Shown here in pieces: positions 26,987 to 37,221 of a stretch of 60,852 nt of DNA. Each line of letters begins with the position of its first letter. The stretch's first letter is position 1. Origin of the DNA: Candidatus Zambryskibacteria bacterium RIFCSPLOWO2_02_FULL_39_26 (lineage in GTDB: Bacteria; Patescibacteriota; Minisyncoccia; Phycocordibacterales; DATDWN01); the NCBI GenBank assembly GCA_001825395.1, contig MHWN01000025.1, forward strand, positions 1-60,852, given 5' to 3'. The notes below the pieces were generated by a model, which worked only from the letters and a program-made list of their open reading frames with translations, did no database searches and was not told the origin of the DNA. Both the position numbers and the translations under genes were made by a program.

Positions 26987-27066
26987 CAGTCAATATCCTG
27001 CCTGTGGATAAGTCCAGCACATCTCCCTTATATAGCAAAATTAAGGAAAAGTGATATGCTATACAA

Positions 27067-28326
27067 ATGGAAAAAGCAAATGAAAATGACAACGACCTAA
27101 GTAAAAACGACCATAGAGTTATAGGCAAGGAGCTGGGACTTTTCACCTTCTCTGACGTAGTCGGTAAGGGCCTGCCCCTCTACACCGACAAGGGCGCTAC
27201 TATAAGACGCGAGCTTGAGAGATTTATTGTGGATGAGGAAATCAGACGCGGTTACAAGCACGTTTCCACTCCCGATCTTGCCAAATTGGATTTGTACAAA
27301 AAATCCGGCCACTACCCTTACTACAAAGACACCATGTACGCGCCGATTGTTATTGACGATGAGGAGTTTATGCTCCGACCGATGACTTGCCCTCATCACT
27401 ACGAACTTTACCTTTCCAAGCCACACTCTTACAGAGAACTGCCGATGCGCATAGCCGAGCTAGCCAAGCTCTACAGATATGAAGCTTCGGGGAATTTGGC
27501 TGGACTTGTACGTGTCAGATCATTCTGTCTGGCTGATGCTCATATAATATGTGCAACGAACGAACAAGCTGGGGGAGAAATTCTTAAAGCTTTGGATCTT
27601 ATCACTTACGTTGCGGAAATCTTTGGTCTCAAGAAAGACGAGGACTTTTGGTACAGACTCTCAAAAGGAGACCGCGCTGACACAAAAAAATATCACAAAG
27701 ATGACAAGGCATGGGATGATGCGGAAGAACTTTTGCGAAAAGTTCTCAAGAGCCAGAAAGTAAAATTTACCGAGGCAGACAACGAAGCAACTTTCTATGG
27801 ACCAAAAATAGATGTTCAAATGAAAGATGTCCGGGGCCAGGAAAATACGGCCTTCACCGTCCAGTATGATTTTATCGCTCCAACTCGTTTTGAACTCTCC
27901 TACACTGACAAAGACGGTGCCGTTAAGCTTTGTAAAGCGATCATCCACCGTTCATCCATCGGAGCTATTGAAAGAATCATGGCCTTTCTTATTGAACACT
28001 ACGGAGGTGCTTTTCCTCTCTGGCTTTCCCCTATTCAAGTAAAAGCTATTCCTGTTCGTACAAATCATAATGAATATGCCGAAAAAATTCACAAAATGTT
28101 AATTGAGAACGGGATCCGTTCTGAAATTGCTCTGGAAGATGAAAACCTTGGCACAAAAGTACGCGACGCTAAAAATGACAAAATTCCGTATTGGATAGTA
28201 TTGGGCGATAAGGAAATGGAAAGTGGTAAAGTAACACTGGAATCTCGAGACCAAGGTCAATTCGGCCAAATATCAGTTGAAAAATTATTAGAAAAATTAA
28301 AAGTGGAAATCAAAAACAAATCTTAA
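27067..28326 (+). CDS. thrS: Threonyl-tRNA synthetase, catalytic and anticodon-binding domains only (no TGS or editing domains)
   Basis: Begins about 15 aa before DHRVIGKELGLF, the start of the class II core. 419 aa. Motifs 2 and 3 and the C-terminal ABD are present. Confidence 0.9.
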   Translation: MEKANENDNDLSKNDHRVIGKELGLFTFSDVVGKGLPLYTDKGATIRRELERFIVDEEIRRGYKHVSTPDLAKLDLYKKSGHYPYYKDTMYAPIVIDDEEFMLRPMTCPHHYELYLSKPHSYRELPMRIAELAKLYRYEASGNLAGLVRVRSFCLADAHIICATNEQAGGEILKALDLITYVAEIFGLKKDEDFWYRLSKGDRADTKKYHKDDKAWDDAEELLRKVLKSQKVKFTEADNEATFYGPKIDVQMKDVRGQENTAFTVQYDFIAPTRFELSYTDKDGAVKLCKAIIHRSSIGAIERIMAFLIEHYGGAFPLWLSPIQVKAIPVRTNHNEYAEKIHKMLIENGIRSEIALEDENLGTKVRDAKNDKIPYWIVLGDKEMESGKVTLESRDQGQFGQISVEKLLEKLKVEIKNKS

Positions 28327-28329
28327 CTA

Positions 28330-28370
28330 AAAAGTATTCTCATATTCTTGAGAATATGAGAATACTTTTT
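28330..28370 (+). terminator. thrS terminator
   Basis: Near-perfect palindrome aaaagtattctcatattc...gaatatgagaatactttt followed by a T-run. Confidence 0.75.
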
Positions 28371-28378
28371 AAAAACTT

Positions 28379-28753
28379 ATGAATACACACAAAAAATTAT
28401 ATAGAAGTAATGCAAATAAAGTCTTCGCTGGAGTAATCGGGGGAATTGGCGAGTATTTTGATGTTGATCCAACCATACTTCGACTTGTTTATGTTTTGAT
28501 AACGGTCATGACCGGTTTTTTGCCGGCTTTGGTTGCATACATCATCGCCTATTTTATAGTACCGGAAAAACCCCGCTACTTTAGTGATGCAACTTATTCA
28601 GAGAGACCAAAAGAAACCCCTAATCCTTCGAATGGGCAAGTAAAAAAACCAGAACCCAAAAAAGAAGAAGTAAAAAAGGAAGAACCTAAGAAAGAAGAAA
28701 TCAAAACTGAAGAGAAAGTAGAGGAAGTTAAAACAGAAAAATTAGATATATAA
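28379..28753 (+). CDS. PspC-domain membrane protein with a K/E-rich tail
   Basis: LYRSNANKVFAGVIGGIGEYFDVDPTILRL, then a TM helix and KKEE repeats. Confidence 0.85.
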   Translation: MNTHKKLYRSNANKVFAGVIGGIGEYFDVDPTILRLVYVLITVMTGFLPALVAYIIAYFIVPEKPRYFSDATYSERPKETPNPSNGQVKKPEPKKEEVKKEEPKKEEIKTEEKVEEVKTEKLDI

Positions 28754-28798
28754 TAAGTAAAATGCCCAGGACAGAATCCCGGGCATTAAGCCAGATCA

Positions 28799-29041
28799 TT
28801 ATCTTTTTCTGGCTATTGTTGCTGACCTCTCGACTAACAAGAAAAGGGCTAGAATTATCAAGAAGCCGCCGGCAAGCGTCATGGTCCCGCCCAAAAGTAT
28901 TTGAAACTTTTTAGGAAGACCAGTAACCATCATATCTCTAAAAAGCAACTGGTCTGCCGCTAACAGCAGTACAACAGCCATGAGAATATATACGACAATT
29001 GCTATTACCGCTTTGATACTGTTTTTCAATTTGACCTCCAT
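28799..29041 (-). CDS. Hypothetical small membrane protein
   Basis: 80 aa with two hydrophobic helices. Confidence 0.4.
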   Translation of the reverse strand: MEVKLKNSIKAVIAIVVYILMAVVLLLAADQLLFRDMMVTGLPKKFQILLGGTMTLAGGFLIILALFLLVERSATIARKR

Positions 29042-29092
29042 TCTTAATATACACTAAAAAATATTTATTGCAAATTAAAGAGAGTCTGGAAA

Positions 29093-31213
29093 TTATATAT
29101 CTAGATTTGCTTTTGTGGCATTAGATTGAATAAATGATTTTCTAGCTGGCACATCTGTACCCATTAAAACATCGAAAACCTTATCAGCAACAACCGCATC
29201 TCCAATTTCAACTTGTTTTAGAATTCGTCTAGCTGGATCCATAGTCGTCTCCCAAAGTTCATCGGAGTTCATTTCACCTAATCCTTTATATCTTTGAATC
29301 GAGATTTTTGTGCTTTTTCCTTTTGTTTGTGATTTATTATCATCCCTATCCAAGACTGTCGTAGCTTTCGCCTCCTGTTCGTTGCCTTCGGCCTTTTCAT
29401 TTTCATCTGTGCCACTCTCTTGCACATCTTGTATTTCCTCAACTTCTTCCTTACCAACAATTTTAACTTTTTCATCATCAGAATAAGCGTAGAAAACTTC
29501 CTTTCCTTTCTTTATTTTATAAAGCGGTGGTTGAGCAATGTAAATAAATCCTCCATCTATAAGTGGTCGAAAAAATCTGTAAAGCAAAGTCAGTATCAAA
29601 GTTCTTATGTGCGCTCCGTCCACATCGGCATCTGTTGCAATTATTATTTTGTGATATCGCAATTTAGAAATATCAAATGTGTCTCCTATGGCAGTGCCAA
29701 AAGCAATGACAAGATTTTTAATCTGTTCCGATTCAAGCATTCTATCTAAACGCGCTCTCTCAATGTTTAAAATTTTACCGCGCAAAGGCAAAATAGCTTG
29801 TGTTCGTCTATCTCGCCCCGTTTTAGCCGTCCCTCCGGCAGAATCTCCCTCCACAATAAACAACTCTGAATCCTCGGCGGACTTACTCTGACAGTCTGCA
29901 AGCTTGCCAGGAAGGGTCATCCCCTCTAGTGCTCCTTTTCGCAGAACGGAGTCTTTAGCCGCCTTGGCCGCTTTTCTGGCCTTCAAGGCCAAAACTACCT
30001 TGTTTATAATAGCTCGCGCATCGTCAGGGTTCTCTTCCAAAAAGTAGGTAAAGGCCTCGGAAAAAACAGTATTGATTGTGCTTTGGGCCTCCACAGTGCC
30101 AAGTTTTGATTTAGTCTGACCTTCAAACTGGACCTCACGGAGTTTAATTGAAATAACAGCGGTTAAACCTTCCAAGACATCCTCTCCGGTAAAATTGTCT
30201 TCTGATTCTTTGATTAAATTATTTTTTCGTCCGTAGGTGTTAAGTGTTCTGGTTAGAGCAGTTTTAAAACCAGTAACGTGCGTTCCTCCCTCCGAGTTGA
30301 AAATATTGTTGGCGAAAGGCAGAAGTCGACAGGAAATGTCATCAATATATTGCAGAGAAACTTCCACCGATTCATACTCGTTTATTTTTTTCTCCACATA
30401 GAAAATATTTTTGTGAATCGGTTTTTGGTCGCTGTTGTAAAATTTAACAAGTGATAATAATCCTCCCTCAAAATAAAAAGACATAGAAGGAATTTCCAGC
30501 CCGAGCTCTGCGATTTTGAAAACTTCGTTTTCTTGTATCTTGCTTGTAAATTTACTTGCGTCGTTTACGGTAATGCGAAGTCCTTTGACCAGATAGGCTT
30601 GTTGGCGAAGATGATCAACAATCTTATCAAAATTAAATTCTATGATTGGGAAAATGGCCGGGTCCGGTTCAAAGACCACGATTGTTCCAGAAAGTTTGGT
30701 ACTGCCGATTTTTTTTACTGCAGCTTTTCTTTTTCCCTTGGAATATTCCTGAACGTAAACACCTCCTTCTTTGTGAACCGTCACTTTGCAGTAAATTGAC
30801 AACGCGTTTACAACAGACGCTCCCACCCCGTGAAGTCCTCCGGAAACCTTATAGCCAGTTCCTTCCCCACCAAACTTTCCTCCAGCGTGAAGCGTGGTCA
30901 TAATAGTTTCAAGGGCGGAAACCTTTGTTTGCTTATGAATATCAACCGGTACCCCTCGGCCGTTGTCAGTAATTCTCACCCGATTTTCTGGAAGTAGAGT
31001 CACCTCAATATCGTTTGCAAAACCGCCCATCGCCTCATCGCGAGAGTTGTCAAAAATTTCCGTAACTAGATGATGGAGTCCATCTGGACCGGTTGTACCA
31101 ATGTACATCCCGGGTCGCTTTCTAACCGGTTCTAGTCCTTCTAGGACCTGAATCGCATCCGCTCCGTATGTGCCATTTTTAGGGGCTTTTTTCGCTTCTT
31201 TTTCCTTCGACAT
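29093..31213 (-). CDS. gyrB: DNA gyrase subunit B (with an acidic insertion near the C-terminus)
   Basis: GHKL ATPase motifs, TOPRIM EGDSAGG and PLRGKILN. An insertion of about 50 aa, EEVEEIQDVQESGTDENEK..., precedes the QRYKGLGEM tail. Confidence 0.97.
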   Translation of the reverse strand: MSKEKEAKKAPKNGTYGADAIQVLEGLEPVRKRPGMYIGTTGPDGLHHLVTEIFDNSRDEAMGGFANDIEVTLLPENRVRITDNGRGVPVDIHKQTKVSALETIMTTLHAGGKFGGEGTGYKVSGGLHGVGASVVNALSIYCKVTVHKEGGVYVQEYSKGKRKAAVKKIGSTKLSGTIVVFEPDPAIFPIIEFNFDKIVDHLRQQAYLVKGLRITVNDASKFTSKIQENEVFKIAELGLEIPSMSFYFEGGLLSLVKFYNSDQKPIHKNIFYVEKKINEYESVEVSLQYIDDISCRLLPFANNIFNSEGGTHVTGFKTALTRTLNTYGRKNNLIKESEDNFTGEDVLEGLTAVISIKLREVQFEGQTKSKLGTVEAQSTINTVFSEAFTYFLEENPDDARAIINKVVLALKARKAAKAAKDSVLRKGALEGMTLPGKLADCQSKSAEDSELFIVEGDSAGGTAKTGRDRRTQAILPLRGKILNIERARLDRMLESEQIKNLVIAFGTAIGDTFDISKLRYHKIIIATDADVDGAHIRTLILTLLYRFFRPLIDGGFIYIAQPPLYKIKKGKEVFYAYSDDEKVKIVGKEEVEEIQDVQESGTDENEKAEGNEQEAKATTVLDRDDNKSQTKGKSTKISIQRYKGLGEMNSDELWETTMDPARRILKQVEIGDAVVADKVFDVLMGTDVPARKSFIQSNATKANLDI

Positions 31214-31360
31214 TCTGTGTTTATTTAGGATATAATTATAGCAAATCTAACCCTATAAAACAAGTGATTTGGGGACTATTTTAGGCCTATTTTAAAACAT
31301 ATTTTTGTGATTTAGTTGTCTTTATTTGACATTATGCTAGACTTTGTTTATGAACAAAAG

Positions 31361-31485
31361 TTTACAGCAAACAACAAGTAAGTTTTTCTTTTTCAGCCAA
31401 GAAACTAGAAGGCCGATCTTTGCGCTGTAAAAATCTCCACAACTTACAACTCAAACACCAGTCTTCTAAGGCTGGTGTTTTTGTT
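31361..31485 (+). ncRNA. Candidate small RNA or leader between a sigma70-like promoter and a terminator
   Basis: TTGACA (31326-31331), 17-nt spacer, TATGAA (31349-31354). Hairpin acaccag...ctggtgt plus T-run at 31454-31485. Boundaries are inferred. Confidence 0.3.
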
Positions 31486-31520
31486 CTTTGGATAGTTTAT
31501 TGAAACCTGAAGGGAGATGA

Positions 31521-31760
31521 GTGGTGAAAAGAATAATGAGACTAGGATCACATAGACATGTTCACCGATATGGTGGGAGGAAACATTCCGCTTTCAAATG
31601 TATTCGCTGTGAACAGTCAGTGACTCGTGACGCCAACCAGCTCTCTTCAATGAAATGCAGAGGTTGGGGGCCATGGAGATGCGAGTGTGGTTCTGGGAAT
31701 GGAGCGTTTCCTCCAAAAATCACATCTAGACATTATCGGGTAAAAGTTCGAGTGGGTTAA
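31521..31760 (+). CDS. Small basic Cys-rich (zinc-binding?) protein with a GTG start
   Basis: AGGGAG SD 4-7 nt upstream. CxxC and CRGWGPWRCEC motifs. Terminator hairpin at about 31770-31806. Confidence 0.5.
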   Translation: MVKRIMRLGSHRHVHRYGGRKHSAFKCIRCEQSVTRDANQLSSMKCRGWGPWRCECGSGNGAFPPKITSRHYRVKVRVG

Positions 31761-31871
31761 TCCCCCACAAACAAGCAACGCCCGAAAGGGAAAGTTGCTC
31801 GTTTTTATTAGAAATAATCAGATTAATAGGGTTTACTTTTTATCAATTTTTAACTAGACTATTGAAATATC

Positions 31872-33014
31872 ATGAGAGTTATATATATAGTATCAAAAAC
31901 CGAAGAAAAGCAGTTACTAAAAAATCTGGAGAAAAGAAAAGATACAGAGGCTTCCAGAATCAGGCATTATTTGGGCATACCGGATTTGTCACGCACAGCT
32001 GGTAGTCCCATAGCAGAGGTGGTAGAGAAAGTTTTGTCTCTACCTGATTTTAAGGATTTGGATATCATAGAAGTACCAGAGGTGGTGCCCACTGATATGA
32101 GTTTTGATCTGTTCGACTTCCCTGTAGACCATCCCACACGCTCAAAATCTGATACATATTATGTGGACGACAAACATATTCTACGCACTCATACAACTGT
32201 GATGTGGTACTACTATTTGCAATTACCGGAAATTAAAGAACGGATGTCTAGAGGTGAACCAGTTGGATGTTTTTCGTATGGCAAGGTTTACAGAAAAGAT
32301 GAAATTGATAGAAGTCATATGAACGTCTTTCACCAGATTGATGGTTGGTATTTAGCGCCTAAAGATAAGCAAATAATTGGCAAAGAGGAACTCCGAGAAG
32401 CTATTTTAGGTATAGCTAGAGCAGTATTTGGTGATAATATAAAAACTAAAATTTTCGACGATACGTTCCCTTTTACTGATCCATCACTCCAGATGGAGAT
32501 AGAAAAAAATGGCAGATGGTTGGAGGTTTTAGGAAGCGGTGTGGTAAAGGCAAGTGTTTTGGAGAAATTTGGCGTTGATTCTACAAAATGGAACGGTTGG
32601 GCATTCGGTCCTGGAATTGAGCGATTAGCCATGGTTTCTATGGAGCTTCCTGACATCCGGCTTCTTTGGTCAAACGACCCTCGTGTAAAAAAACAACTGA
32701 AACTTGGTCAGAAATTCATTGAAGTTTCAAAATTTCCACCAGTTGTTCGCGATATTTCTTTTGTTGTTAATAATTCATTTATCCCAAATGATTATTTTGA
32801 TCTGGTGAGGGATATTGGTGGAGATTTGGTGGAAGAAGTGGTATTGTTAGACAAATACAAAAACACCGAGAAATTCGGTAAAGATAATACGAGCTATGCC
32901 TACCGCATCACTTACCGCTCACTAGACAGGACTTTGATTGGAGAAGAAGTTGACGCGGTTCACAAAAAATTGGAATCCGAAACTGAAAAAATATTTAAAG
33001 CTAAAATAAGATAA
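31872..33014 (+). CDS. pheS: Monomeric (mitochondrial FARS2-type) phenylalanyl-tRNA synthetase: alpha catalytic core fused to an FDX-ACB domain
   Basis: DHPTRSKSDTYY, ILRTHTT, FHQIDG, GWAFGPGIERLAM, then C-terminal SKFPPVVRDISF...DYFDLVRDIGGDLVEEV...YAYRITYRSLDRTL, which closely resembles my recollection of the human FARS2 C-terminus. Confidence 0.85.
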   Translation: MRVIYIVSKTEEKQLLKNLEKRKDTEASRIRHYLGIPDLSRTAGSPIAEVVEKVLSLPDFKDLDIIEVPEVVPTDMSFDLFDFPVDHPTRSKSDTYYVDDKHILRTHTTVMWYYYLQLPEIKERMSRGEPVGCFSYGKVYRKDEIDRSHMNVFHQIDGWYLAPKDKQIIGKEELREAILGIARAVFGDNIKTKIFDDTFPFTDPSLQMEIEKNGRWLEVLGSGVVKASVLEKFGVDSTKWNGWAFGPGIERLAMVSMELPDIRLLWSNDPRVKKQLKLGQKFIEVSKFPPVVRDISFVVNNSFIPNDYFDLVRDIGGDLVEEVVLLDKYKNTEKFGKDNTSYAYRITYRSLDRTLIGEEVDAVHKKLESETEKIFKAKIR

Positions 33015-33018
33015 TCCC

Positions 33019-34263
33019 ATGCCGGATATAAGTAATTTAATCACATATTTTTTCCTGTTCCTCTCGCTAAACTTTGAGATATTCATTCTTATTACTTATT
33101 TTGAAAATAGAGAAAAAATCGAAAAGGAAGAAAAATGGGCAATGATTAAACCCAAAAACTACCCATCGGTTACGATCATTATCCCCTGCTGGAATGAGGA
33201 AACAACGGTTTCTCAAACAGTTCACTCGCTTCTAAACTTGGATTATCCGCAAAACAAACTGAAAATAATGATAGTGGACGATGGATCCAAAGACAAGACT
33301 TGGTTCGTAATCCAAAAATTCAAAAACCACCCGCAGGTAGAGCTTCATAAAAAAGAAAATGGAGGAAAATATACTGCTTTAAACTATGGCCTCTCCAAAT
33401 TAACTTCTGACTTGGTCGGTTGTCTTGATGCCGACTCCTACGTCCACAAAGACGCCCTCCGGCAAATCGTCACATATTTTCAGGACAAAGAAATCATGGC
33501 TGTAGCCCCCTCCATCAAGCTATGGCAACCAAAAACCTTTCTCCAGCTTCTTCAAAAAGTTGAGTACGGTTTCGGAGTATTCACCAGAAAAATGTACCAC
33601 TATATGCAAGCAATTTACATCACTCCCGGACCATTTTCCATTTTCAGGCGCGAAGTTTTCCAAAATTTGGGACCTTACAGACACGCTCACAACACGGAAG
33701 ATATTGAGATTGCTTTGCGCATGCAAAAAAACGGCTACAAAATCGCCCACGCCCACAAAGCCATAGTTTATACTGTCCCCCCAAAAACCGTTCCAAAACT
33801 TTTGCGCCAAAGAGTGCGATGGTCGTACGGTTTTATCAAAAACGCCACAGATTATCGGGATATGATTTTTAGAAAAAAATACGGCAATGTCGGAATGATT
33901 ATCCTGCCAATGGCTTGCCTGTCGCTTTTATCGGTTTTGTTTGTTTCAATATCTTTTATTGTTAATTTTTTGTACAATATTTTTGTTTGGTTGGTAAAAG
34001 TCGGCACAGTCGGTCTGAATTTTAATCTTTCATTTAACTTTGATTGGTTTTATTTAAACACCGAACTTTTGGTTTTAATCGGAATTATCGTTACTCTAGG
34101 CTCAACAATAATGATTCTTATGTCTAAAAAAATGTCGGAGGGAAAATTGGATATTGGAATGGATTTGGTGTACTATTTGGGCCTCTATATGTTTATCGCC
34201 CCGATTTGGATGGGCAGAGCAGTGTTTAACGCCATCTTTTCGGTCAAAACACCTTGGAGATAA
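33019..34263 (+). CDS. Family 2 glycosyltransferase (processive, membrane-embedded; QxxRW type)
   Basis: VTIIIPCWNEE, DDGSKD, LDADS and QRVRWSYG, plus C-terminal TM helices. Confidence 0.85.
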   Translation: MPDISNLITYFFLFLSLNFEIFILITYFENREKIEKEEKWAMIKPKNYPSVTIIIPCWNEETTVSQTVHSLLNLDYPQNKLKIMIVDDGSKDKTWFVIQKFKNHPQVELHKKENGGKYTALNYGLSKLTSDLVGCLDADSYVHKDALRQIVTYFQDKEIMAVAPSIKLWQPKTFLQLLQKVEYGFGVFTRKMYHYMQAIYITPGPFSIFRREVFQNLGPYRHAHNTEDIEIALRMQKNGYKIAHAHKAIVYTVPPKTVPKLLRQRVRWSYGFIKNATDYRDMIFRKKYGNVGMIILPMACLSLLSVLFVSISFIVNFLYNIFVWLVKVGTVGLNFNLSFNFDWFYLNTELLVLIGIIVTLGSTIMILMSKKMSEGKLDIGMDLVYYLGLYMFIAPIWMGRAVFNAIFSVKTPWR

Positions 34264-34269
34264 CCCGCC

Positions 34270-34953
34270 ATGCAAAACTCAAATGGAATAAATTGGAAAA
34301 AATACTTTTTTTCTTTTGTTATAACGGCTGTCATTTTTTTCACCGCAATTCTCATCAGCAACTATTTTTCGCAGAAAAAAACGGAGGATATAAGAAACAT
34401 TCAGGACAAAATCGCCATTGACATACTTTCCTCTGAAACCCAATTTGCCCTGCTTGAAGAATCATCGTGTAACGACGTTGGAGCAGGAACACTTTCTACA
34501 GAACTTAGTGAACTGGAAAACAAATTGACATACACTGAAAATCAGCGCGGTTTTGATGACCCGGAGGTGCAGATTTTGAAAAAGTACTATTTCTTGCTTG
34601 AAATCAAGGATTATCTTTTGATGAATAAAATAAGCGAGAAGTGCAAAAAAACTCCTCTTTCCGTCGTATATTTCTATTCCAATGATAAAAGGTGCACGGA
34701 ATGTGAAAAAGAAGGTTTTGTCCTAACTCGCCTAAGAGAGCTGTACCCGGAACTGCGGGTATATTCATTTGATTATGACGCAGACCTGTCGGCAGTTAAA
34801 ACCTTCATCAGAATAAATAATATTGAAGACCGACTGCCAGCAATTATTATCAAAAGCAAAACCTATTACGGTTTTCGAGATATTGAAGATTTGGAAAAAG
34901 CTGTGCCGGAATTAACTAAACTTAAAATCGCAACTAGCACACCTTTAAATTAG
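34270..34953 (+). CDS. Hypothetical membrane-anchored protein with a CTEC motif (possible thioredoxin-like fold)
   Basis: N-terminal TM helix and a CxxC at CTECEKEG. No firm family assignment. Confidence 0.4.
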   Translation: MQNSNGINWKKYFFSFVITAVIFFTAILISNYFSQKKTEDIRNIQDKIAIDILSSETQFALLEESSCNDVGAGTLSTELSELENKLTYTENQRGFDDPEVQILKKYYFLLEIKDYLLMNKISEKCKKTPLSVVYFYSNDKRCTECEKEGFVLTRLRELYPELRVYSFDYDADLSAVKTFIRINNIEDRLPAIIIKSKTYYGFRDIEDLEKAVPELTKLKIATSTPLN

Positions 34954-35372
34954 AGATTTTTAATATACTTATTCATCCTCCACTTTCTACCCTTTCCCTT
35001 ATTAAGGTTTTTAAAAAAAGGAGTCAAAGCATGACAGTTTGGACAAAGTAATCTTAGATTTTTTTCTTTATTATTTTCAGCATTACCATCAATATGGTCA
35101 ATTTCTAGTGGCACACTTTTTGTAACAGGATGTTTTTTATTCCAACTACACTCAGAACATTTGTTTTTATATTTTTCAATCAAATATTTTCTTAGGTGGG
35201 TAGAAATATTTCTTGCATTTATCCCAATATTCCCATGAACTAAACCTCTTTTCCATAATGTTAACCATTTCTTGTGCTGATGATTAAGTTGGCATCTATT
35301 TGAACAATATTTTATCTTATGACGAAGAACCATAGTGACTCCACAATTAATACAATTTCTTATTTTCTTCAT
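34950..35372 (-). CDS. Free-standing HNH endonuclease
   Basis: EIDHIDGNAENN...NLRLLCPNCH, plus N-terminal CxxC pairs. Confidence 0.85.
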   Translation of the reverse strand: MKKIRNCINCGVTMVLRHKIKYCSNRCQLNHQHKKWLTLWKRGLVHGNIGINARNISTHLRKYLIEKYKNKCSECSWNKKHPVTKSVPLEIDHIDGNAENNKEKNLRLLCPNCHALTPFFKNLNKGKGRKWRMNKYIKNL

Positions 35373-35487
35373 TACTTAAGTATACCACAAACAATACTAT
35401 GCCGTGGTATACCTAAATATCTGATCTTTTACCCTTGAGAAAAATACTAAAAGGTGTTAAATTGATTGAGGTCTAATTTAAAAATTT

Positions 35488-35563
35488 GCCACCTTAGCTC
35501 AGTTGGTAGAGCACCGATTTTGTAAATCGGATCGCGTCAGTTCGAATCTGACAGGTGGCTCCA
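35488..35563 (+). tRNA. tRNA-Thr (anticodon UGU), CCA encoded
   Basis: Hand-folded cloverleaf: acceptor gccacct/aggtggc, anticodon stem ccgat/atcgg, loop ttTGTaa, T-arm gtcag-ttcgaat-ctgac. Confidence 0.9.
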
Positions 35564-35591
35564 GAATTAGACTTTCCGGTGATTTGGCCGC

Positions 35592-35972
35592 TTAAAATTT
35601 TGTCTCCTCAACTCTAGACTCCTCATGGGAGAGTCTTTCCAGAAAAAAGGATATGGAACCGTTGTTTCGGAGAACTCTCCTGCCCCGGAAACTGTTTCCA
35701 GCACTGTAATATCTCTTTGAAACATAATCTTTGGCCTTGACCAAAAGCTCATATAAATATGATGGAAGAAATTCAAAAATGAAAATGTGGACGATTTTCT
35801 TCAAGTGGTTATACCGAGAAACAAGGCGTTCCAGAATTGTATGGATTTTCCCGTCGCCTCTCTCAAAAATGTTGGCAATAAAATGTATCCTTTTGATTTT
35901 TATTTCAAAAGCCTTATAAAATAATAGCCCAAATAAAACCGCAAGAGAAATAATAAATAGTATGGTCATCAT
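35592..35972 (-). CDS. Hypothetical protein with an N-terminal TM helix
   Basis: 126-aa ORF with no recognisable motif. Confidence 0.35.
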   Translation of the reverse strand: MMTILFIISLAVLFGLLFYKAFEIKIKRIHFIANIFERGDGKIHTILERLVSRYNHLKKIVHIFIFEFLPSYLYELLVKAKDYVSKRYYSAGNSFRGRRVLRNNGSISFFLERLSHEESRVEETKF

Positions 35973-35985
35973 ATAATTAAAAAGA

Positions 35986-36480
35986 TTAAGAGATACTGAA
36001 ACGGATGAAACGAGATAATTCTATTTTTTCGCCAAATTTTTGAACTGCACTTTGTATTAGATTGTTAATAGTGACCTCCGGATTTTTAATAAAAGACTGA
36101 CTAAGCAAAACTCCTTCTCCTGCTTCCCCCGCTCCAGGATCTTCAGCCTTTAGATGTGTGGGATTAGTAGCTGAAACCTGCATTGCGATATCGCGAGCTA
36201 AAGTTTGAAACTCTTCGTTTTTGGCAACGAAGTCAGTCTCGCATAACAATTCTACCATAGCCCCGACATTGCCGGTATTGTGTATGTAAGAAGCAATAAC
36301 ACCGGCTCCAAACGTCCTATCGCCCTTCTTTAGGGCTATTTCAGCACTTTTTGAGGCAAGGATAGCCACAGCCTTATCCACATCCCCCCCTGCCTCTTCG
36401 AGTGCTTTTTTACATTGCATCACAGAAACACCCGTTTTGTCACGCAAATGCTTTACAAGCTCGGTTGTAATTTCAGTCAT
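35986..36480 (-). CDS. tsf: Elongation factor Ts (short form)
   Basis: UBA-like N-terminus LVKHLRDKTGVSVMQCKKALEEAGGDVDKAV. Lies downstream of rpsB. Confidence 0.9.
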   Translation of the reverse strand: MTEITTELVKHLRDKTGVSVMQCKKALEEAGGDVDKAVAILASKSAEIALKKGDRTFGAGVIASYIHNTGNVGAMVELLCETDFVAKNEEFQTLARDIAMQVSATNPTHLKAEDPGAGEAGEGVLLSQSFIKNPEVTINNLIQSAVQKFGEKIELSRFIRFSIS

Positions 36481-36495
36481 AGAACTATAATTATA

Positions 36496-37221
36496 CTACA
36501 CTGTTGCTGGCTTTTTCAATTGACCTGCTTTATAACTTTCAGCTATTTTTTGGAGGAAAAATTCTATACTTGTGCGAGATGCATCGTTGCCAGGAATTGG
36601 AAACTCCACTTCATTTAAGTTGTTGTCTGTTCCACAAAGTGCAATGACAGAAATTCCCATTTTCCGCGCTTCTTTAACCGCAATGGATTCTTTTTTGGCA
36701 TCAACTACAAAAATTGCCGCCGGTAGATTTTTCATCGGTGATATGCCGAAGAAAAAAACTCGAAGCCTGTCTATTTCACGGTCAATTAAAAGTCTCTCTT
36801 TCTTAGTGTACTTTGCAAGTTCCCCTTTTTCCTTTTGCGATATCCAAGACTCCATTTTCTCTACTCGTTTTCGGATTTCAGGAAAGTTGGTCAAAGTCCC
36901 GCCGATAAATCGTCCGGCCACGTACGGCATATTTATTTTTTCGGCTGTTTTGGTTATGGCAGATATTGCCTCGTTTTTACCACTAACAAAAAGTATTTGT
37001 GCGTTTCGGGAACCAAGGGACTCCACAAACTCAAGGGCTGTGTTTAGTGAATCTTTTGTTTTTTCCAGATCAAATATTTCTATCTTGTTTTTAACTCCAA
37101 AAATAAATGGTTTTGCACTTGGATGTCTGCGAGATTTTACGAAACCAAAGTGTGCCCCAGCAGTAAAAAGAGCCTCAACTTGAGTATTTCCTGCATTAGA
37201 AGTATTAGTTGTTTTTGACAT
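36496..37221 (-). CDS. rpsB: 30S ribosomal protein S2
   Basis: AGAHFGF..RR..P...PFIFG..N.I.I.DL.KT pattern and the conserved rpsB-tsf order. Confidence 0.95.
   Translation of the reverse strand: MSKTTNTSNAGNTQVEALFTAGAHFGFVKSRRHPSAKPFIFGVKNKIEIFDLEKTKDSLNTALEFVESLGSRNAQILFVSGKNEAISAITKTAEKINMPYVAGRFIGGTLTNFPEIRKRVEKMESWISQKEKGELAKYTKKERLLIDREIDRLRVFFFGISPMKNLPAAIFVVDAKKESIAVKEARKMGISVIALCGTDNNLNEVEFPIPGNDASRTSIEFFLQKIAESYKAGQLKKPATV

What the first reader, a model, noticed from the sequence alone, without database searches (positions are those of the whole stretch)
31872..33014. Mitochondrial-type monomeric PheRS in a bacterium, with no adjacent pheT
The single 380-aa ORF joins the class II alpha catalytic core to a C-terminal FDX-ACB anticodon-binding domain. 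From memory of human FARS2, the C-terminus (SKFPPVVRDISF...DYFDLVRDIGGDLVEEV...YAYRITYRSLDRTL) is strikingly similar to SKYPAVINDISF...DFYDLVRTIGGDLVEKV...HCYRITYRHMERTL. Canonical bacterial PheRS is an (alpha-beta)2 enzyme with pheT next to pheS. Here the next gene is a glycosyltransferase. A monomeric enzyme would also lack the beta-subunit editing site.
Basis: partly seen in the sequence, partly recalled or inferred. Interest (0 to 1): 0.6.

Follow-up and report, generated by a model that had tools for sequence, protein, structure and literature searches.

The report
Single-chain PheRS replaces bacterial pheST
A tiny groundwater bacterium charges tRNA-Phe with a one-piece, mitochondria-like enzyme that sits where its close relatives keep the usual two-gene enzyme and that has no proofreading domain.

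Summary
ORF 31872-33014 (+), 380 aa, joins a class II PheRS catalytic core (PF01409) to a C-terminal FDX-ACB domain (PF03147). Its closest solved relative, by sequence and by predicted fold (TM 0.78-0.79), is human mitochondrial PheRS.

The 611-kb Patescibacteria genome (92.6% complete) has no pheT, no second pheS, and no B3_4 or B5 domain. In four congeners, a pheT-pheS operon lies between the same gyrB and GT2 genes where the window carries the single-chain gene. The breakpoints fall at the two flanking start codons. Enzyme type is interleaved on a flanking-gene tree, and tRNA-Phe does not change with it.

In a phylum-wide draw, 30 of 400 other genomes carry the single-chain form. None of them has a PheT over the curated cut-off; 323 of the other 370 do.

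On a tree, the bacterial single-chain proteins are sister to the eukaryote plus presumed giant-virus clade, not nested in it. Nesting of that clade inside the bacterial one is not rejected (p-AU 0.095).

The gene is very probably the organism's only PheRS and has no editing domain. Monomeric state and activity are inferred. No description of a bacterial enzyme of this kind turned up in ten full-text searches.

The parts
31872..33014 (+). Single-chain PheRS gene, 380 aa (P0001)
   Evidence: ORF list and translation. Pfam PF01409 plus PF03147. AlphaFold2 model with pLDDT 94.7 and pTM 0.90. Best fold matches are human mitochondrial PheRS at TM 0.78-0.79.
31872..32006 (+). N-terminal extension (aa 1-45), predicted as a short strand and two helices. 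It is shared by the bacterial single-chain forms aligned and is unlike eukaryotic presequences.
   Evidence: Secondary structure of the model and the alignment. Function not tested.
32007..32696 (+). Class II PheRS catalytic core (aa 46-275)
   Evidence: PF01409, E 2.6e-50. It is the only PF01409 match of this strength in the genome.
32280..32345 (+). Motif 2 region GKVYRKDEIDRSHMNVFHQIDG (aa 137-158). R141, D143, D146, H149, F153, H154 and Q155 are invariant in 54 sequences.
   Evidence: Invariant columns of alignment A3. The motif name is recalled from class II aaRS literature.
32466..32486 (+). FPFTDPS (aa 199-205), the recalled Phe-pocket segment. T202 aligns with E. coli PheS T251.
   Evidence: Alignment with E. 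coli PheS taken from NC_000913.3. The role of T251 is recalled.
32595..32636 (+). Motif 3 region GWAFGPGIERLAMV (aa 242-255). A244 aligns with E. coli PheS A294.
   Evidence: The role of A294 is recalled.
32727..33011 (+). FDX-ACB anticodon-binding domain (aa 286-380), homologous to the C-terminal domain of PheT
   Evidence: PF03147, E 4.1e-21. Matches TIGR00472 pheT positions 693-798.
31271..33037 (.). Swapped cassette: the stretch with no DNA similarity to canonical congener G005, which carries pheT-pheS plus about 1.3 kb in its place
   Evidence: blastn of window 27000-36500 against G005. Homology covers 29093-31270 and 33038-34926 only. Contigs of four other runs bridge both junctions.
29093..31213 (-). 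gyrB, the conserved left flank of the swap locus
   Evidence: 81-87% protein identity to the flank in both single-chain and canonical congeners.
33019..34263 (+). Family 2 glycosyltransferase, the conserved right flank. It starts 4 bp after the PheRS stop codon.
   Evidence: Pfam PF13641/PF00535. 66-75% identical orthologues lie next to the single-chain gene or next to pheS in congeners.
31521..31760 (+). 79-aa basic, Cys-rich ORF inside the cassette, bracketed by terminator-like hairpins. Unknown whether it is real.
   Evidence: ORF list. One terminator-like site at 31453-31480. No homologue in the congeners' loci at E 1e-5.

Best explanation
The gene encodes the organism's only phenylalanyl-tRNA synthetase. 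It is a single polypeptide in which the class II PheRS catalytic core activates phenylalanine and transfers it to tRNA-Phe, while the fused C-terminal FDX-ACB domain reads the GAA anticodon, as in mitochondrial PheRS. It took the place of the canonical pheS-pheT operon at the same chromosomal site, between gyrB and a glycosyltransferase gene. The likely route was homologous recombination in those conserved flanks with DNA from another Patescibacteria lineage. Such swaps have occurred several times within the genus. The enzyme has no B3/B4 editing domain, so Phe/Tyr fidelity must rest on the synthetic site alone. Shown here: architecture, fold, conserved catalytic and specificity positions, absence of pheS/pheT and editing domains, same-locus replacement, mutual exclusivity across genomes, and an unchanged tRNA-Phe. 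Inferred: aminoacylation activity, monomeric state, the closed-to-open domain swing on tRNA binding, the recombination route, and the lack of editing activity.
For: Architecture and fold.

Sole PheRS: TIGR00472, PF03483 and PF03484 find no PheT, B3_4 or B5 in the 92.6%-complete genome. The only other PF01409 hit is LysRS. The pheS proteins of three congeners hit only this gene, and their pheT proteins hit nothing.

Same locus: in G002, G005, G010 and G015 the order is ThrRS/(PspC)/gyrB(-)/pheT(-)/pheS(-)/GT2(+)/orf227. In the window, and in 9 single-chain congeners plus G039 of another family, it is gyrB(-)/single-chain(+)/GT2(+). DNA similarity stops within about 20-60 bp of the gyrB start codon. 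It resumes 3 bp before the GT2 start codon (G008/G002) or 19 bp after it (window/G005).

Exclusivity: among 41 relatives, 18 have the single-chain form and none of these has a PheT core hit; 20 have PheT. In the phylum draw, 0 of 31 single-chain genomes have a PheT over the cut-off, against 323 of 370 others.

tRNA-Phe: 25 genes show no difference by enzyme type, and some are identical across types.

Active site: E. coli T251 and A294 align with T202 and A244, and motif 2 and 3 residues are invariant.

Assembly: contigs from four runs in four other studies bridge both junctions.
Against: No biochemical or expression data are available: no RNA run is listed for this stretch. The genome is 7.4% incomplete. 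The protein scores under the curated cut-offs of every NCBIfam PheRS model: pheS_mito 237.9 against 258.35, and pheS 144 against 237.45. In one Oligoflexia and three Gracilibacteria/Peribacteria genomes the same kind of protein coexists with a pheT over the cut-off, and in three of the four with a canonical pheS as well. So members of the family can be accessory paralogues. Three relatives (G016, G019, G036; 86-98% complete) show neither enzyme type with my queries, so the queries can miss things.
Confidence: 0.88

Rival explanations
1. The protein is catalytically a PheRS but does not work alone. It may act as a homodimer, like most class II synthetases, or together with a tRNA-binding helper made from another gene, such as the 145-aa tRNA_bind protein on contig C20.
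For: In three other Patescibacteria families, 16 of 16 single-chain genes examined have a stand-alone PheT-B2-like tRNA-binding ORF directly upstream. The window's genome encodes a free tRNA_bind protein resembling the MetRS C-terminus.
Against: The window's lineage has no B2-like ORF within the flanks examined. Free tRNA_bind ORFs occur in relatives with either enzyme type, so they are not specific to the single-chain form. Human and yeast mitochondrial PheRS are described as monomers (PMC9976931, passages seen).
Confidence: 0.2
2. The gene is an accessory PheS-like paralogue with another job (as NCBI supposes for the 'mystery ligase' SrmL). On this reading the real pheS-pheT lies in the unassembled 7% of the genome.
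For: The protein coexists with canonical pheT in four genomes outside this lineage. Its score for the SrmL model is nearly equal to its score for the mitochondrial model (237.4 against 237.9 bits).
Against: The site where congeners keep pheT-pheS is fully assembled here and holds this gene instead. None of 31 single-chain genomes in the phylum draw has a PheT over the cut-off, and many of them are 98-100% complete. The SrmL cut-off of 300 bits is not reached. A true SrmL (396 bits), in which Pfam sees no FDX-ACB, occurs alongside the single-chain gene in G018.
Confidence: 0.04
3. The gene is a recent capture of a eukaryotic FARS2-like or giant-virus gene by a bacterium, or it reflects eukaryotic or viral contamination of the bin.
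For: The best solved and curated matches are mitochondrial. Presequence-less homologues occur on viral contigs.
Against: The bacterial sequences form their own clade (100/98), separate from the eukaryote plus presumed-virus clade (99/97). The gene lies in a 60.9-kb contig collinear with congeners, and its GC is 0.384 against 0.398 for the window. Thousands of Patescibacteria homologues exist.
Confidence: 0.02

Closest known systems
Mitochondrial PheRS (human FARS2, yeast Msf1; NCBIfam TIGR00469)
   Same: One chain with a PheRS alpha-type core fused to an FDX-ACB domain and no editing domain. The predicted fold superposes on the closed form of the human enzyme over both domains (TM 0.78-0.79, 32-33% identity). 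The specificity positions aligned with E. coli T251 and A294 are kept.
   Different: It is encoded in a bacterial chromosome and has no presequence. It lacks the insertion after motif 2 seen in the eukaryotic forms aligned, and it has its own N-terminal extension and a longer loop before motif 2. It belongs to a separate bacterial clade and scores below the curated cut-off.
Canonical bacterial (alpha-beta)2 PheRS, pheS-pheT (TIGR00468/TIGR00472)
   Same: The same catalytic-core family, and the same anticodon-binding domain as the PheT C-terminus. It serves the same tRNA-Phe and sits at the same chromosomal site as pheT-pheS in congeners.
   Different: One gene of 380 aa replaces two genes of about 250 and 640 aa. 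B1-B7 are absent, including the B3/B4 editing module. The core is only 25-28% identical to the congeners' PheS.
SrmL, 'PheS-related mystery ligase' (NCBIfam NF051887)
   Same: A single-chain PheS-like bacterial protein of similar length. The model aligns over residues 61-368 of the window protein.
   Different: The window protein scores 237 against a cut-off of 300. The true SrmL found in G018 scores 396, shows no Pfam FDX-ACB domain, and coexists with a single-chain PheRS. It passed the cut-off in 1 of 41 relatives.
Displacement of plastid pheS/syfB by monomer-type PheRS in diatoms and cryptophytes (PMC4494062, passages seen)
   Same: A single-chain PheRS repeatedly takes over from a heterotetrameric bacterial-type enzyme, and the beta-subunit gene is then lost.
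   Different: There the process works by retargeting a nuclear-encoded mitochondrial enzyme into an organelle. Here it is a swap of genes at one locus in free bacterial genomes.
Presequence-less single-chain PheRS on IMG/VR viral contigs (presumed giant viruses)
   Same: The same two-domain architecture, about 340-370 aa. These pass the TIGR00469 cut-off.
   Different: They group with eukaryotes, not with the bacterial clade, and are 34-37% identical to the window protein.

Membership tests
Mitochondrial-type single-chain PheRS (TIGR00469 pheS_mito; FARS2/Msf1) | Class II PheRS alpha-type catalytic core | tested here: met
   PF01409 at residues 46-275, E 2.6e-50
Mitochondrial-type single-chain PheRS (TIGR00469 pheS_mito; FARS2/Msf1) | FDX-ACB anticodon-binding domain fused to the C-terminus of the same chain | tested here: met
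   PF03147 at residues 286-380, E 4.1e-21
Mitochondrial-type single-chain PheRS (TIGR00469 pheS_mito; FARS2/Msf1) | Score over the curated equivalog cut-off (258.35 bits) | tested here: not met
   237.9 bits. A 61%-identical relative, P0122, passes with 264.3.
Mitochondrial-type single-chain PheRS (TIGR00469 pheS_mito; FARS2/Msf1) | Two-domain fold like solved human mitochondrial PheRS | tested here: met
   Foldseek TM 0.78-0.79 and E 2e-35 to 5mgv/3cmq/5mgh. Canonical alpha chains match the core only, at TM about 0.54.
Mitochondrial-type single-chain PheRS (TIGR00469 pheS_mito; FARS2/Msf1) | Branches within the eukaryotic mitochondrial clade | tested here: not met
   It lies in a bacterial sister clade with 100/98 support.
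Mitochondrial-type single-chain PheRS (TIGR00469 pheS_mito; FARS2/Msf1) | Works without a beta subunit in its genetic system | tested here: met
   No PheT, B3_4 or B5 in the genome. pheT-pheS is replaced at its own locus.
Mitochondrial-type single-chain PheRS (TIGR00469 pheS_mito; FARS2/Msf1) | Monomeric quaternary structure | not testable with these tools
   Needs SEC-MALS or native mass spectrometry on purified protein.
Mitochondrial-type single-chain PheRS (TIGR00469 pheS_mito; FARS2/Msf1) | Charges tRNA-Phe with phenylalanine | not testable with these tools
   Inferred from conserved motifs and specificity positions and from the absence of any other PheRS.
Canonical bacterial PheRS alpha subunit (TIGR00468 pheS) | Score over the curated cut-off (237.45 bits) | tested here: not met
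   144 bits
Canonical bacterial PheRS alpha subunit (TIGR00468 pheS) | Partner PheT beta subunit encoded in the genome | tested here: not met
SrmL, PheS-related mystery ligase (NF051887) | Score over the curated cut-off (300 bits) | tested here: not met
   237.4 bits. The true member in G018 scores 396.3.
SrmL, PheS-related mystery ligase (NF051887) | Extra paralogue present beside a housekeeping PheRS | tested here: not met
   Here it is the only PheRS-like gene. In G018, SrmL coexists with a single-chain PheRS.

The most novel reading that the evidence does not exclude
The alpha-core/FDX-ACB fusion that defines mitochondrial PheRS arose in bacteria, not in eukaryotes, and the eukaryotic (and giant-virus) enzyme descends from a Patescibacteria-like single-chain PheRS. 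The two-gene arrangement found in three families, a stand-alone PheT-B2 ORF followed by the single-chain gene, is collinear with pheT if a PheS core replaced B3-B7. It could be a relic of the event that created the fusion. The evidence does not exclude this. The bacterial and eukaryotic clades are sisters, and nesting the eukaryotic clade inside the bacterial one is not rejected (p-AU 0.095). The bacterial forms mostly keep the canonical length before motif 3 (16 of 19) whereas only 2 of 25 eukaryotic or viral forms do. Against it: B2-linked forms lie only in a crown clade, not at the base of the bacterial clade. In genus g276 the B2 ORF looks like a recombination flank shared with pheT rather than an ancient relic.
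Probability: 0.2. Interest if true: 0.9.

Novelty: new variant of a known kind. Interest (0 to 1): 0.72.

Why it matters
As I recall the textbooks, PheRS is a heterotetramer in all bacteria and a monomer only in organelles. Three consequences follow from what is seen here.

1. A sizeable minority of Patescibacteria (30 of 400 sampled genomes) appear to rely on a one-gene PheRS without an editing domain. The two enzyme types behave almost like alternative alleles of one locus among species of one genus. That gives a natural experiment on whether PheRS proofreading is dispensable in bacteria.

2. A bacterial sister clade to mitochondrial PheRS makes the unresolved origin of that enzyme testable with real sequences.

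3. Annotation pipelines currently call most of these proteins 'hypothetical'. Genome-completeness and metabolic surveys may therefore score these organisms as lacking PheRS.

Tried and rejected
- **Scan of named genomes:** the first scan failed because alignment A1 was too divergent. A tighter alignment, A2, worked, but its peptide patterns excluded the Paceibacteria-type motif. That scan therefore says nothing about how common the window's subgroup is.
- **Complex prediction:** run on the G370 single-chain PheRS with its upstream B2-like ORF. It gave 'no answer' (score 0.02), which counts neither for nor against binding.
- **The look-up of sequencing runs:** no RNA holder is listed, so nothing can be said about expression.
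- **Rfam scan of the 658-bp upstream region:** only a chance-level match (E 0.68). The promoter-like count was no higher than in shuffles.
- **Two-residue indel before motif 3:** suggestive but homoplastic, so it is given little weight. Counts with the canonical length: outgroup 11 of 11, bacterial 16 of 19, presumed viral 0 of 10, eukaryotic 2 of 15.
- **Co-variation of tRNA-Phe identity elements with enzyme type:** looked for in 25 genes and not found.
- **Literature:** ten searches found no paper on a bacterial single-chain or monomeric PheRS, and nothing on SrmL. The library holds only CC-licensed PMC papers and bioRxiv, and supplements were closed, so an earlier mention elsewhere cannot be excluded.
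- **Hypotheses considered and rejected:** SrmL membership, recent capture from a eukaryote or virus, and an assembly chimera.
Full report
**Observation**

The ORF lies at 31872-33014 on the + strand, starts with ATG and encodes 380 aa. The opposite strand is full of stops. Pfam finds the class II PheRS core (PF01409, residues 46-275, E 2.6e-50) followed by the ferredoxin-fold anticodon-binding domain (PF03147, residues 286-380, E 4.1e-21).

Among solved structures, the six best sequence matches are all human mitochondrial PheRS (E 7.5e-60 to 1.1e-58). Bacterial alpha chains follow from E 5e-37. PheT chains match only the last 90-100 residues.

**The rest of the genome**

The window is contig C25 of a 611,437-bp, 28-contig assembly rated 92.63% complete and 0.1% contaminated. 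Source names for the closest proteins and the ESM Atlas both place it in Patescibacteria (Paceibacteria/Minisyncoccota).

- The pheT model (TIGR00472) hits only this protein's own FDX-ACB domain and a 145-aa tRNA_bind ORF on C20 that resembles the MetRS C-terminus.
- PF01409 hits only this gene and, weakly, a 483-aa ORF that reads as LysRS.
- The editing-module domain B3_4 and the B5 domain give no hit at E 0.01, although both ring in all 14 control genomes.
- D-Tyr-tRNA deacylase is not found either.
- The actual PheS proteins of three congeners hit only this gene (25-28% identity), and their PheT proteins hit nothing at E 1e-3.
- There is one tRNA-Phe(GAA) gene, on contig C5.

**Relatives**

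In a draw of 40 relatives plus G000, 18 genomes carry the single-chain form over essentially its full length. These are G000, 14 of 24 congeners at 60-64% identity, and 3 of 16 genomes from other families of the order at 46-57%. One further congener has only an N-terminal fragment.

None of the 18 has a PheT core match. Their pheT hits are their own FDX-ACB domain and small tRNA_bind ORFs. Twenty genomes (7 congeners and 13 others) have an adjacent short pheS (233-251 aa where extracted) and a pheT (612-655 aa, model positions about 157-798, so without the N-terminal B1-B2). Three genomes (G016, G019, G036; 86, 91 and 98% complete) showed neither type. I did not resolve these.

**Phylum-wide draw**

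The draw covered 400 other genomes, all at least 85% complete. Thirty have the single-chain form: 28 full length, one cut at a contig end and one partial.

With the pheT model at E <= 1e-27, 17 of the 31 single-chain genomes (G000 included) have no match. The other 14 have matches of 1e-27 to 6e-45. I looked at all 14, plus G287. In every case the match is a 130-177-aa ORF covering only PheT positions about 34-164, plus the genome's own FDX-ACB.

So 0 of 31 single-chain genomes have a PheT over the curated cut-off, against 323 of the other 370. Of those 370, 369 have some match at E <= 1e-27. I did not inspect which part of PheT the 46 sub-cut-off ones match. G160 (87% complete) has neither type. 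Four genera (g1, g20, g276, g295) contain both types.

**Replacement at the same locus**

In the window the gene order is ThrRS, PspC, gyrB(-), single-chain PheRS(+), GT2(+), orf227(+)..., orf126(-), Tsf(-), RpsB(-). Among the single-chain relatives' loci, GT2 flanks the gene in 10 and gyrB in 8. G018's locus has neither neighbour.

In four canonical congeners (G002, G005, G010, G015) the same flanking genes are present and collinear. Between gyrB(-) and GT2(+), however, lie pheT(-) and pheS(-).

- **G008 against G002.** At the DNA level, similarity (77-84%) runs through gyrB to about 20 bp short of its start codon, vanishes, and resumes 3 bp before the GT2 start codon. The intervening segment is 1.9 kb in G008 and 3.65 kb in G002.
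- **Window against G005.** The non-homologous segment in the window is 31271-33037.

On a tree of the flanking GT2 protein (14 congeners), the four canonical genomes need four changes of state, and the well-supported branches alone force at least three. G008 (single-chain) and G002 (canonical) are sisters with 100/99 support. The swap has therefore happened repeatedly within the genus. The tree cannot give the direction of each event.

Contigs from four runs in four studies, none flagged as a possible source of this assembly, bridge the gyrB-to-cassette junction. Contigs from three of them bridge the PheRS-to-GT2 junction. Most show 0-1 differences. The arrangement is not an assembly artefact.

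**Substrate**

tRNA-Phe genes from 25 genomes (14 single-chain, 9 canonical, 2 of unknown type) all have G1-C72, A73 and a GAA anticodon, and show no difference that tracks enzyme type. G008 and G013 (single-chain) have the same sequence as G002 and G006 (canonical). G000's gene differs at two positions from that of canonical G005.

This fits the broad tRNA-Phe tolerance and small identity set reported for mitochondrial PheRS (PMC9976931, passages seen). It would make such a swap easy.

**Structure and active site**

An AlphaFold2 model built from a 54-sequence alignment has mean pLDDT 94.7 and pTM 0.90. Foldseek against the PDB ranks six human mitochondrial PheRS entries first (TM 0.78-0.79, rmsd about 3 Å over about 390 columns). 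The tRNA-bound 'open' form 3tup scores TM 0.58, and canonical alpha chains about 0.54, matching the core only. The model thus resembles the closed state.

E. coli PheS T251 and A294 are the positions I recall as setting amino-acid specificity. They align with T202 and A244, and the same residues are kept in all ten other sequences aligned except one canonical CPR PheS, which has V at the first position. Twenty-eight columns are invariant over the 54 sequences, including the motif 2 arginine R141 and the FHQ triplet.

**The wider family**

The word-indexed search found 6822 proteins. The best 120 all have both domains, are 365-486 aa long and 67-98% identical, and where named come from Paceibacteria-type MAGs. 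NCBI mostly calls them 'hypothetical protein', and JGI calls them 'PheRS alpha chain'. The exhaustive search of 50%-identity representatives gives 237 clusters at E <= 1e-30. Four kinds can be told apart.

1. **Patescibacteria forms.** These include the window's protein.
2. **Deeper bacterial branches.** These comprise an Oligoflexia MAG protein (44% identity), three unnamed proteins, and three Gracilibacteria/Peribacteria genes that are open only under code 25.
3. **Presequence-less proteins of 340-370 aa.** Their relatives lie on 43 IMG/VR viral contigs, six of them named GVMAG and one 1.47 Mb long. I infer a giant-virus origin for this group and did not check each protein.
4. **Eukaryotic mitochondrial enzymes.** Named examples come from a locust, a fission yeast and a choanoflagellate.

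**Phylogeny**

A 55-row maximum-likelihood tree was rooted with 11 canonical PheS sequences: E. coli, five Clostridia MAGs, one Myxococcales MAG and four Patescibacteria. It unites all single-chain forms (100/100). It splits them into a bacterial clade (19 rows, 100/98) and a eukaryote plus presumed-virus clade (25 rows, 99/97). The bootstrap had not fully settled, and the outgroup lacks the C-terminal domain.

An AU test of one alternative did not reject it. That alternative places the eukaryote plus virus clade with the Gracilibacteria-type group, and so nested among the bacteria (delta lnL 26.8, p 0.095). The group was chosen after seeing the tree.

Within the bacterial clade, family labels are scrambled, which indicates lateral transfer among Patescibacteria.

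**A caution from other lineages**

The Oligoflexia MAG (3.4 Mb) and the three Gracilibacteria/Peribacteria genomes all have a pheT over the cut-off. Three of the four also have a canonical pheS beside their single-chain gene; in G441 only pheT was seen. In those lineages the protein is an additional paralogue. One route consistent with this is coexistence first and loss of pheST later. In the window's genus, though, the evidence is for direct swapping at one locus.

**SrmL**

The window protein scores 237.4 bits on NCBI's 'PheS-related mystery ligase SrmL' model, whose cut-off is 300. A true SrmL (396 bits, 371 aa, no Pfam FDX-ACB) is present in congener G018 in addition to its single-chain PheRS. 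It passed the cut-off in 1 of 41 relatives. The window protein is not SrmL.

**Side finding: a B2 remnant**

In families f49, f109 and f103, 16 of 16 single-chain genes examined are preceded on the same strand by an ORF of about 120-185 aa. For the 14 pairs measured, the gap is 5-99 bp in 13 and 331 bp in one. The ORF is a PF01588 tRNA-binding domain that most resembles the N-terminal B2 part of PheT and YtpR.

In genus g276, canonical G347 has MTase, full-length pheT (767 aa) and gyrB. Its congener G370 has MTase, B2-ORF, single-chain PheRS and gyrB. The B2-ORF aligns with the 5' part of pheT at 72.7% nucleotide identity, about the level of the flanking gyrB (74%). There the single-chain gene occupies the place of the B3-B8 part of pheT, and the B2 part persists as its own gene.

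No such ORF lies in the flanks I examined in the window's lineage, in eight other families, or in the Oligoflexia MAG. The Gracilibacteria loci have too little upstream sequence to tell.

**Mechanism, and what is shown against what is inferred**

Shown:
- The architecture and a confident fold.
- Conserved catalytic and specificity positions.
- No other PheRS genes and no editing domain in the assembly.
- Positional replacement of pheT-pheS, repeated within the genus.
- Mutual exclusivity across 31 genomes in the phylum draw.
- An unchanged tRNA-Phe.

Inferred:
- The protein charges tRNA-Phe.
- It is monomeric.
- It opens on tRNA binding like the human mitochondrial enzyme.
- It has no proofreading.
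- The swaps occur by homologous recombination in gyrB and GT2.

**Literature**

Ten full-text searches found nothing on a bacterial single-chain PheRS.

- PMC5370408 (passages seen) notes that many CPR PheRS beta subunits lack B2.
- PMC4494062 (passages seen) documents repeated displacement of the plastid heterotetrameric PheRS by the monomer type in algae. It sampled 13 prokaryotes and, in the passages I saw, reports no bacterial monomer type.
- Statements about editing by the beta subunit and about the fidelity of mitochondrial PheRS rest on my own recall.

The searchable library is partial and supplements were closed.

**Verdict**

The enzyme is a bacterial variant of the mitochondrial-type single-chain PheRS. 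It serves as the only PheRS of this organism and was installed at the pheST locus.

Noticed in passing
L148:1465-1869 (G370) and the equivalent ORFs in L179-L191, L207, L215: A stand-alone PheT-B2-like tRNA-binding ORF (PF01588) lies directly upstream of the single-chain PheRS in 16 of 16 genomes examined from families f49, f109 and f103. In genus g276 it aligns with the 5' part of a congener's full-length pheT at 72.7% nucleotide identity.
   Followed up: yes
window 27067-28326 (+): The ThrRS is only 419 aa. Pfam sees just the class II core and the anticodon-binding domain, with no N-terminal TGS or editing domain. tRNA_SAD occurs once elsewhere in the genome (C8, a 548-aa frame). This organism may lack editing in more than one synthetase.
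   Followed up: partly
L146:1135-2250 (-) (G018 contig C3): A true SrmL 'PheS-related mystery ligase' (396 bits, 371 aa, no Pfam FDX-ACB) sits in a congener that also has the single-chain PheRS. It is the only one among 41 relatives. That genome is rated 4% contaminated.
   Followed up: partly
L063 (Oligoflexia MAG); L064-L066 (Peribacteria/Gracilibacteria MAGs): Single-chain PheRS-like genes here coexist with a pheT over the cut-off. The Gracilibacteria genes are open only with TGA read as a sense codon (table 25).
   Followed up: partly
L019-L061 (IMG/VR contigs): 43 viral contigs (six named GVMAG; up to 1.47 Mb) encode presequence-less single-chain PheRS of about 340-370 aa. These group with eukaryotic mitochondrial enzymes.
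   Followed up: partly
L015-L018, L200-L203: Canonical PheRS in the window's order is itself reduced. PheS is 233-251 aa, which I read as lacking the long N-terminal arm. PheT is 612-655 aa and matches the model from about position 157, so it lacks B1-B2.
   Followed up: partly
L201:4177-6006 (-) (G005 pheT): The pheT of G005 has one in-frame stop in my translation (flagged as 1 TAG). G005 is the canonical congener whose tRNA-Phe is closest to the window's. I cannot tell whether this is a sequencing error or gene decay.
   Followed up: no
G016, G019, G036 (relatives; 86, 91 and 98% complete): Neither the single-chain form nor pheS/pheT was detected with my queries. They may carry a more divergent PheRS.
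   Followed up: no
window 31521-31760 (+): A 79-aa basic, Cys-rich ORF lies in the 658-bp gap between gyrB and the PheRS gene, inside the swapped cassette. It has no homologue in the congeners' loci.
   Followed up: partly
window 34950-35372 (-): A 140-aa ORF next to tRNA-Thr carries what I recall as an HNH-nuclease-like motif (DHIDGN ... CPNCH). It has no counterpart in the congeners' otherwise collinear loci, so it may be a small mobile insertion.
   Followed up: no
L204 (G347 contig C32): In this canonical genome pheT is not preceded by pheS; a methyltransferase-like ORF lies upstream. pheS and pheT may be unlinked in that family, though the contig is only 5.8 kb.
   Followed up: no
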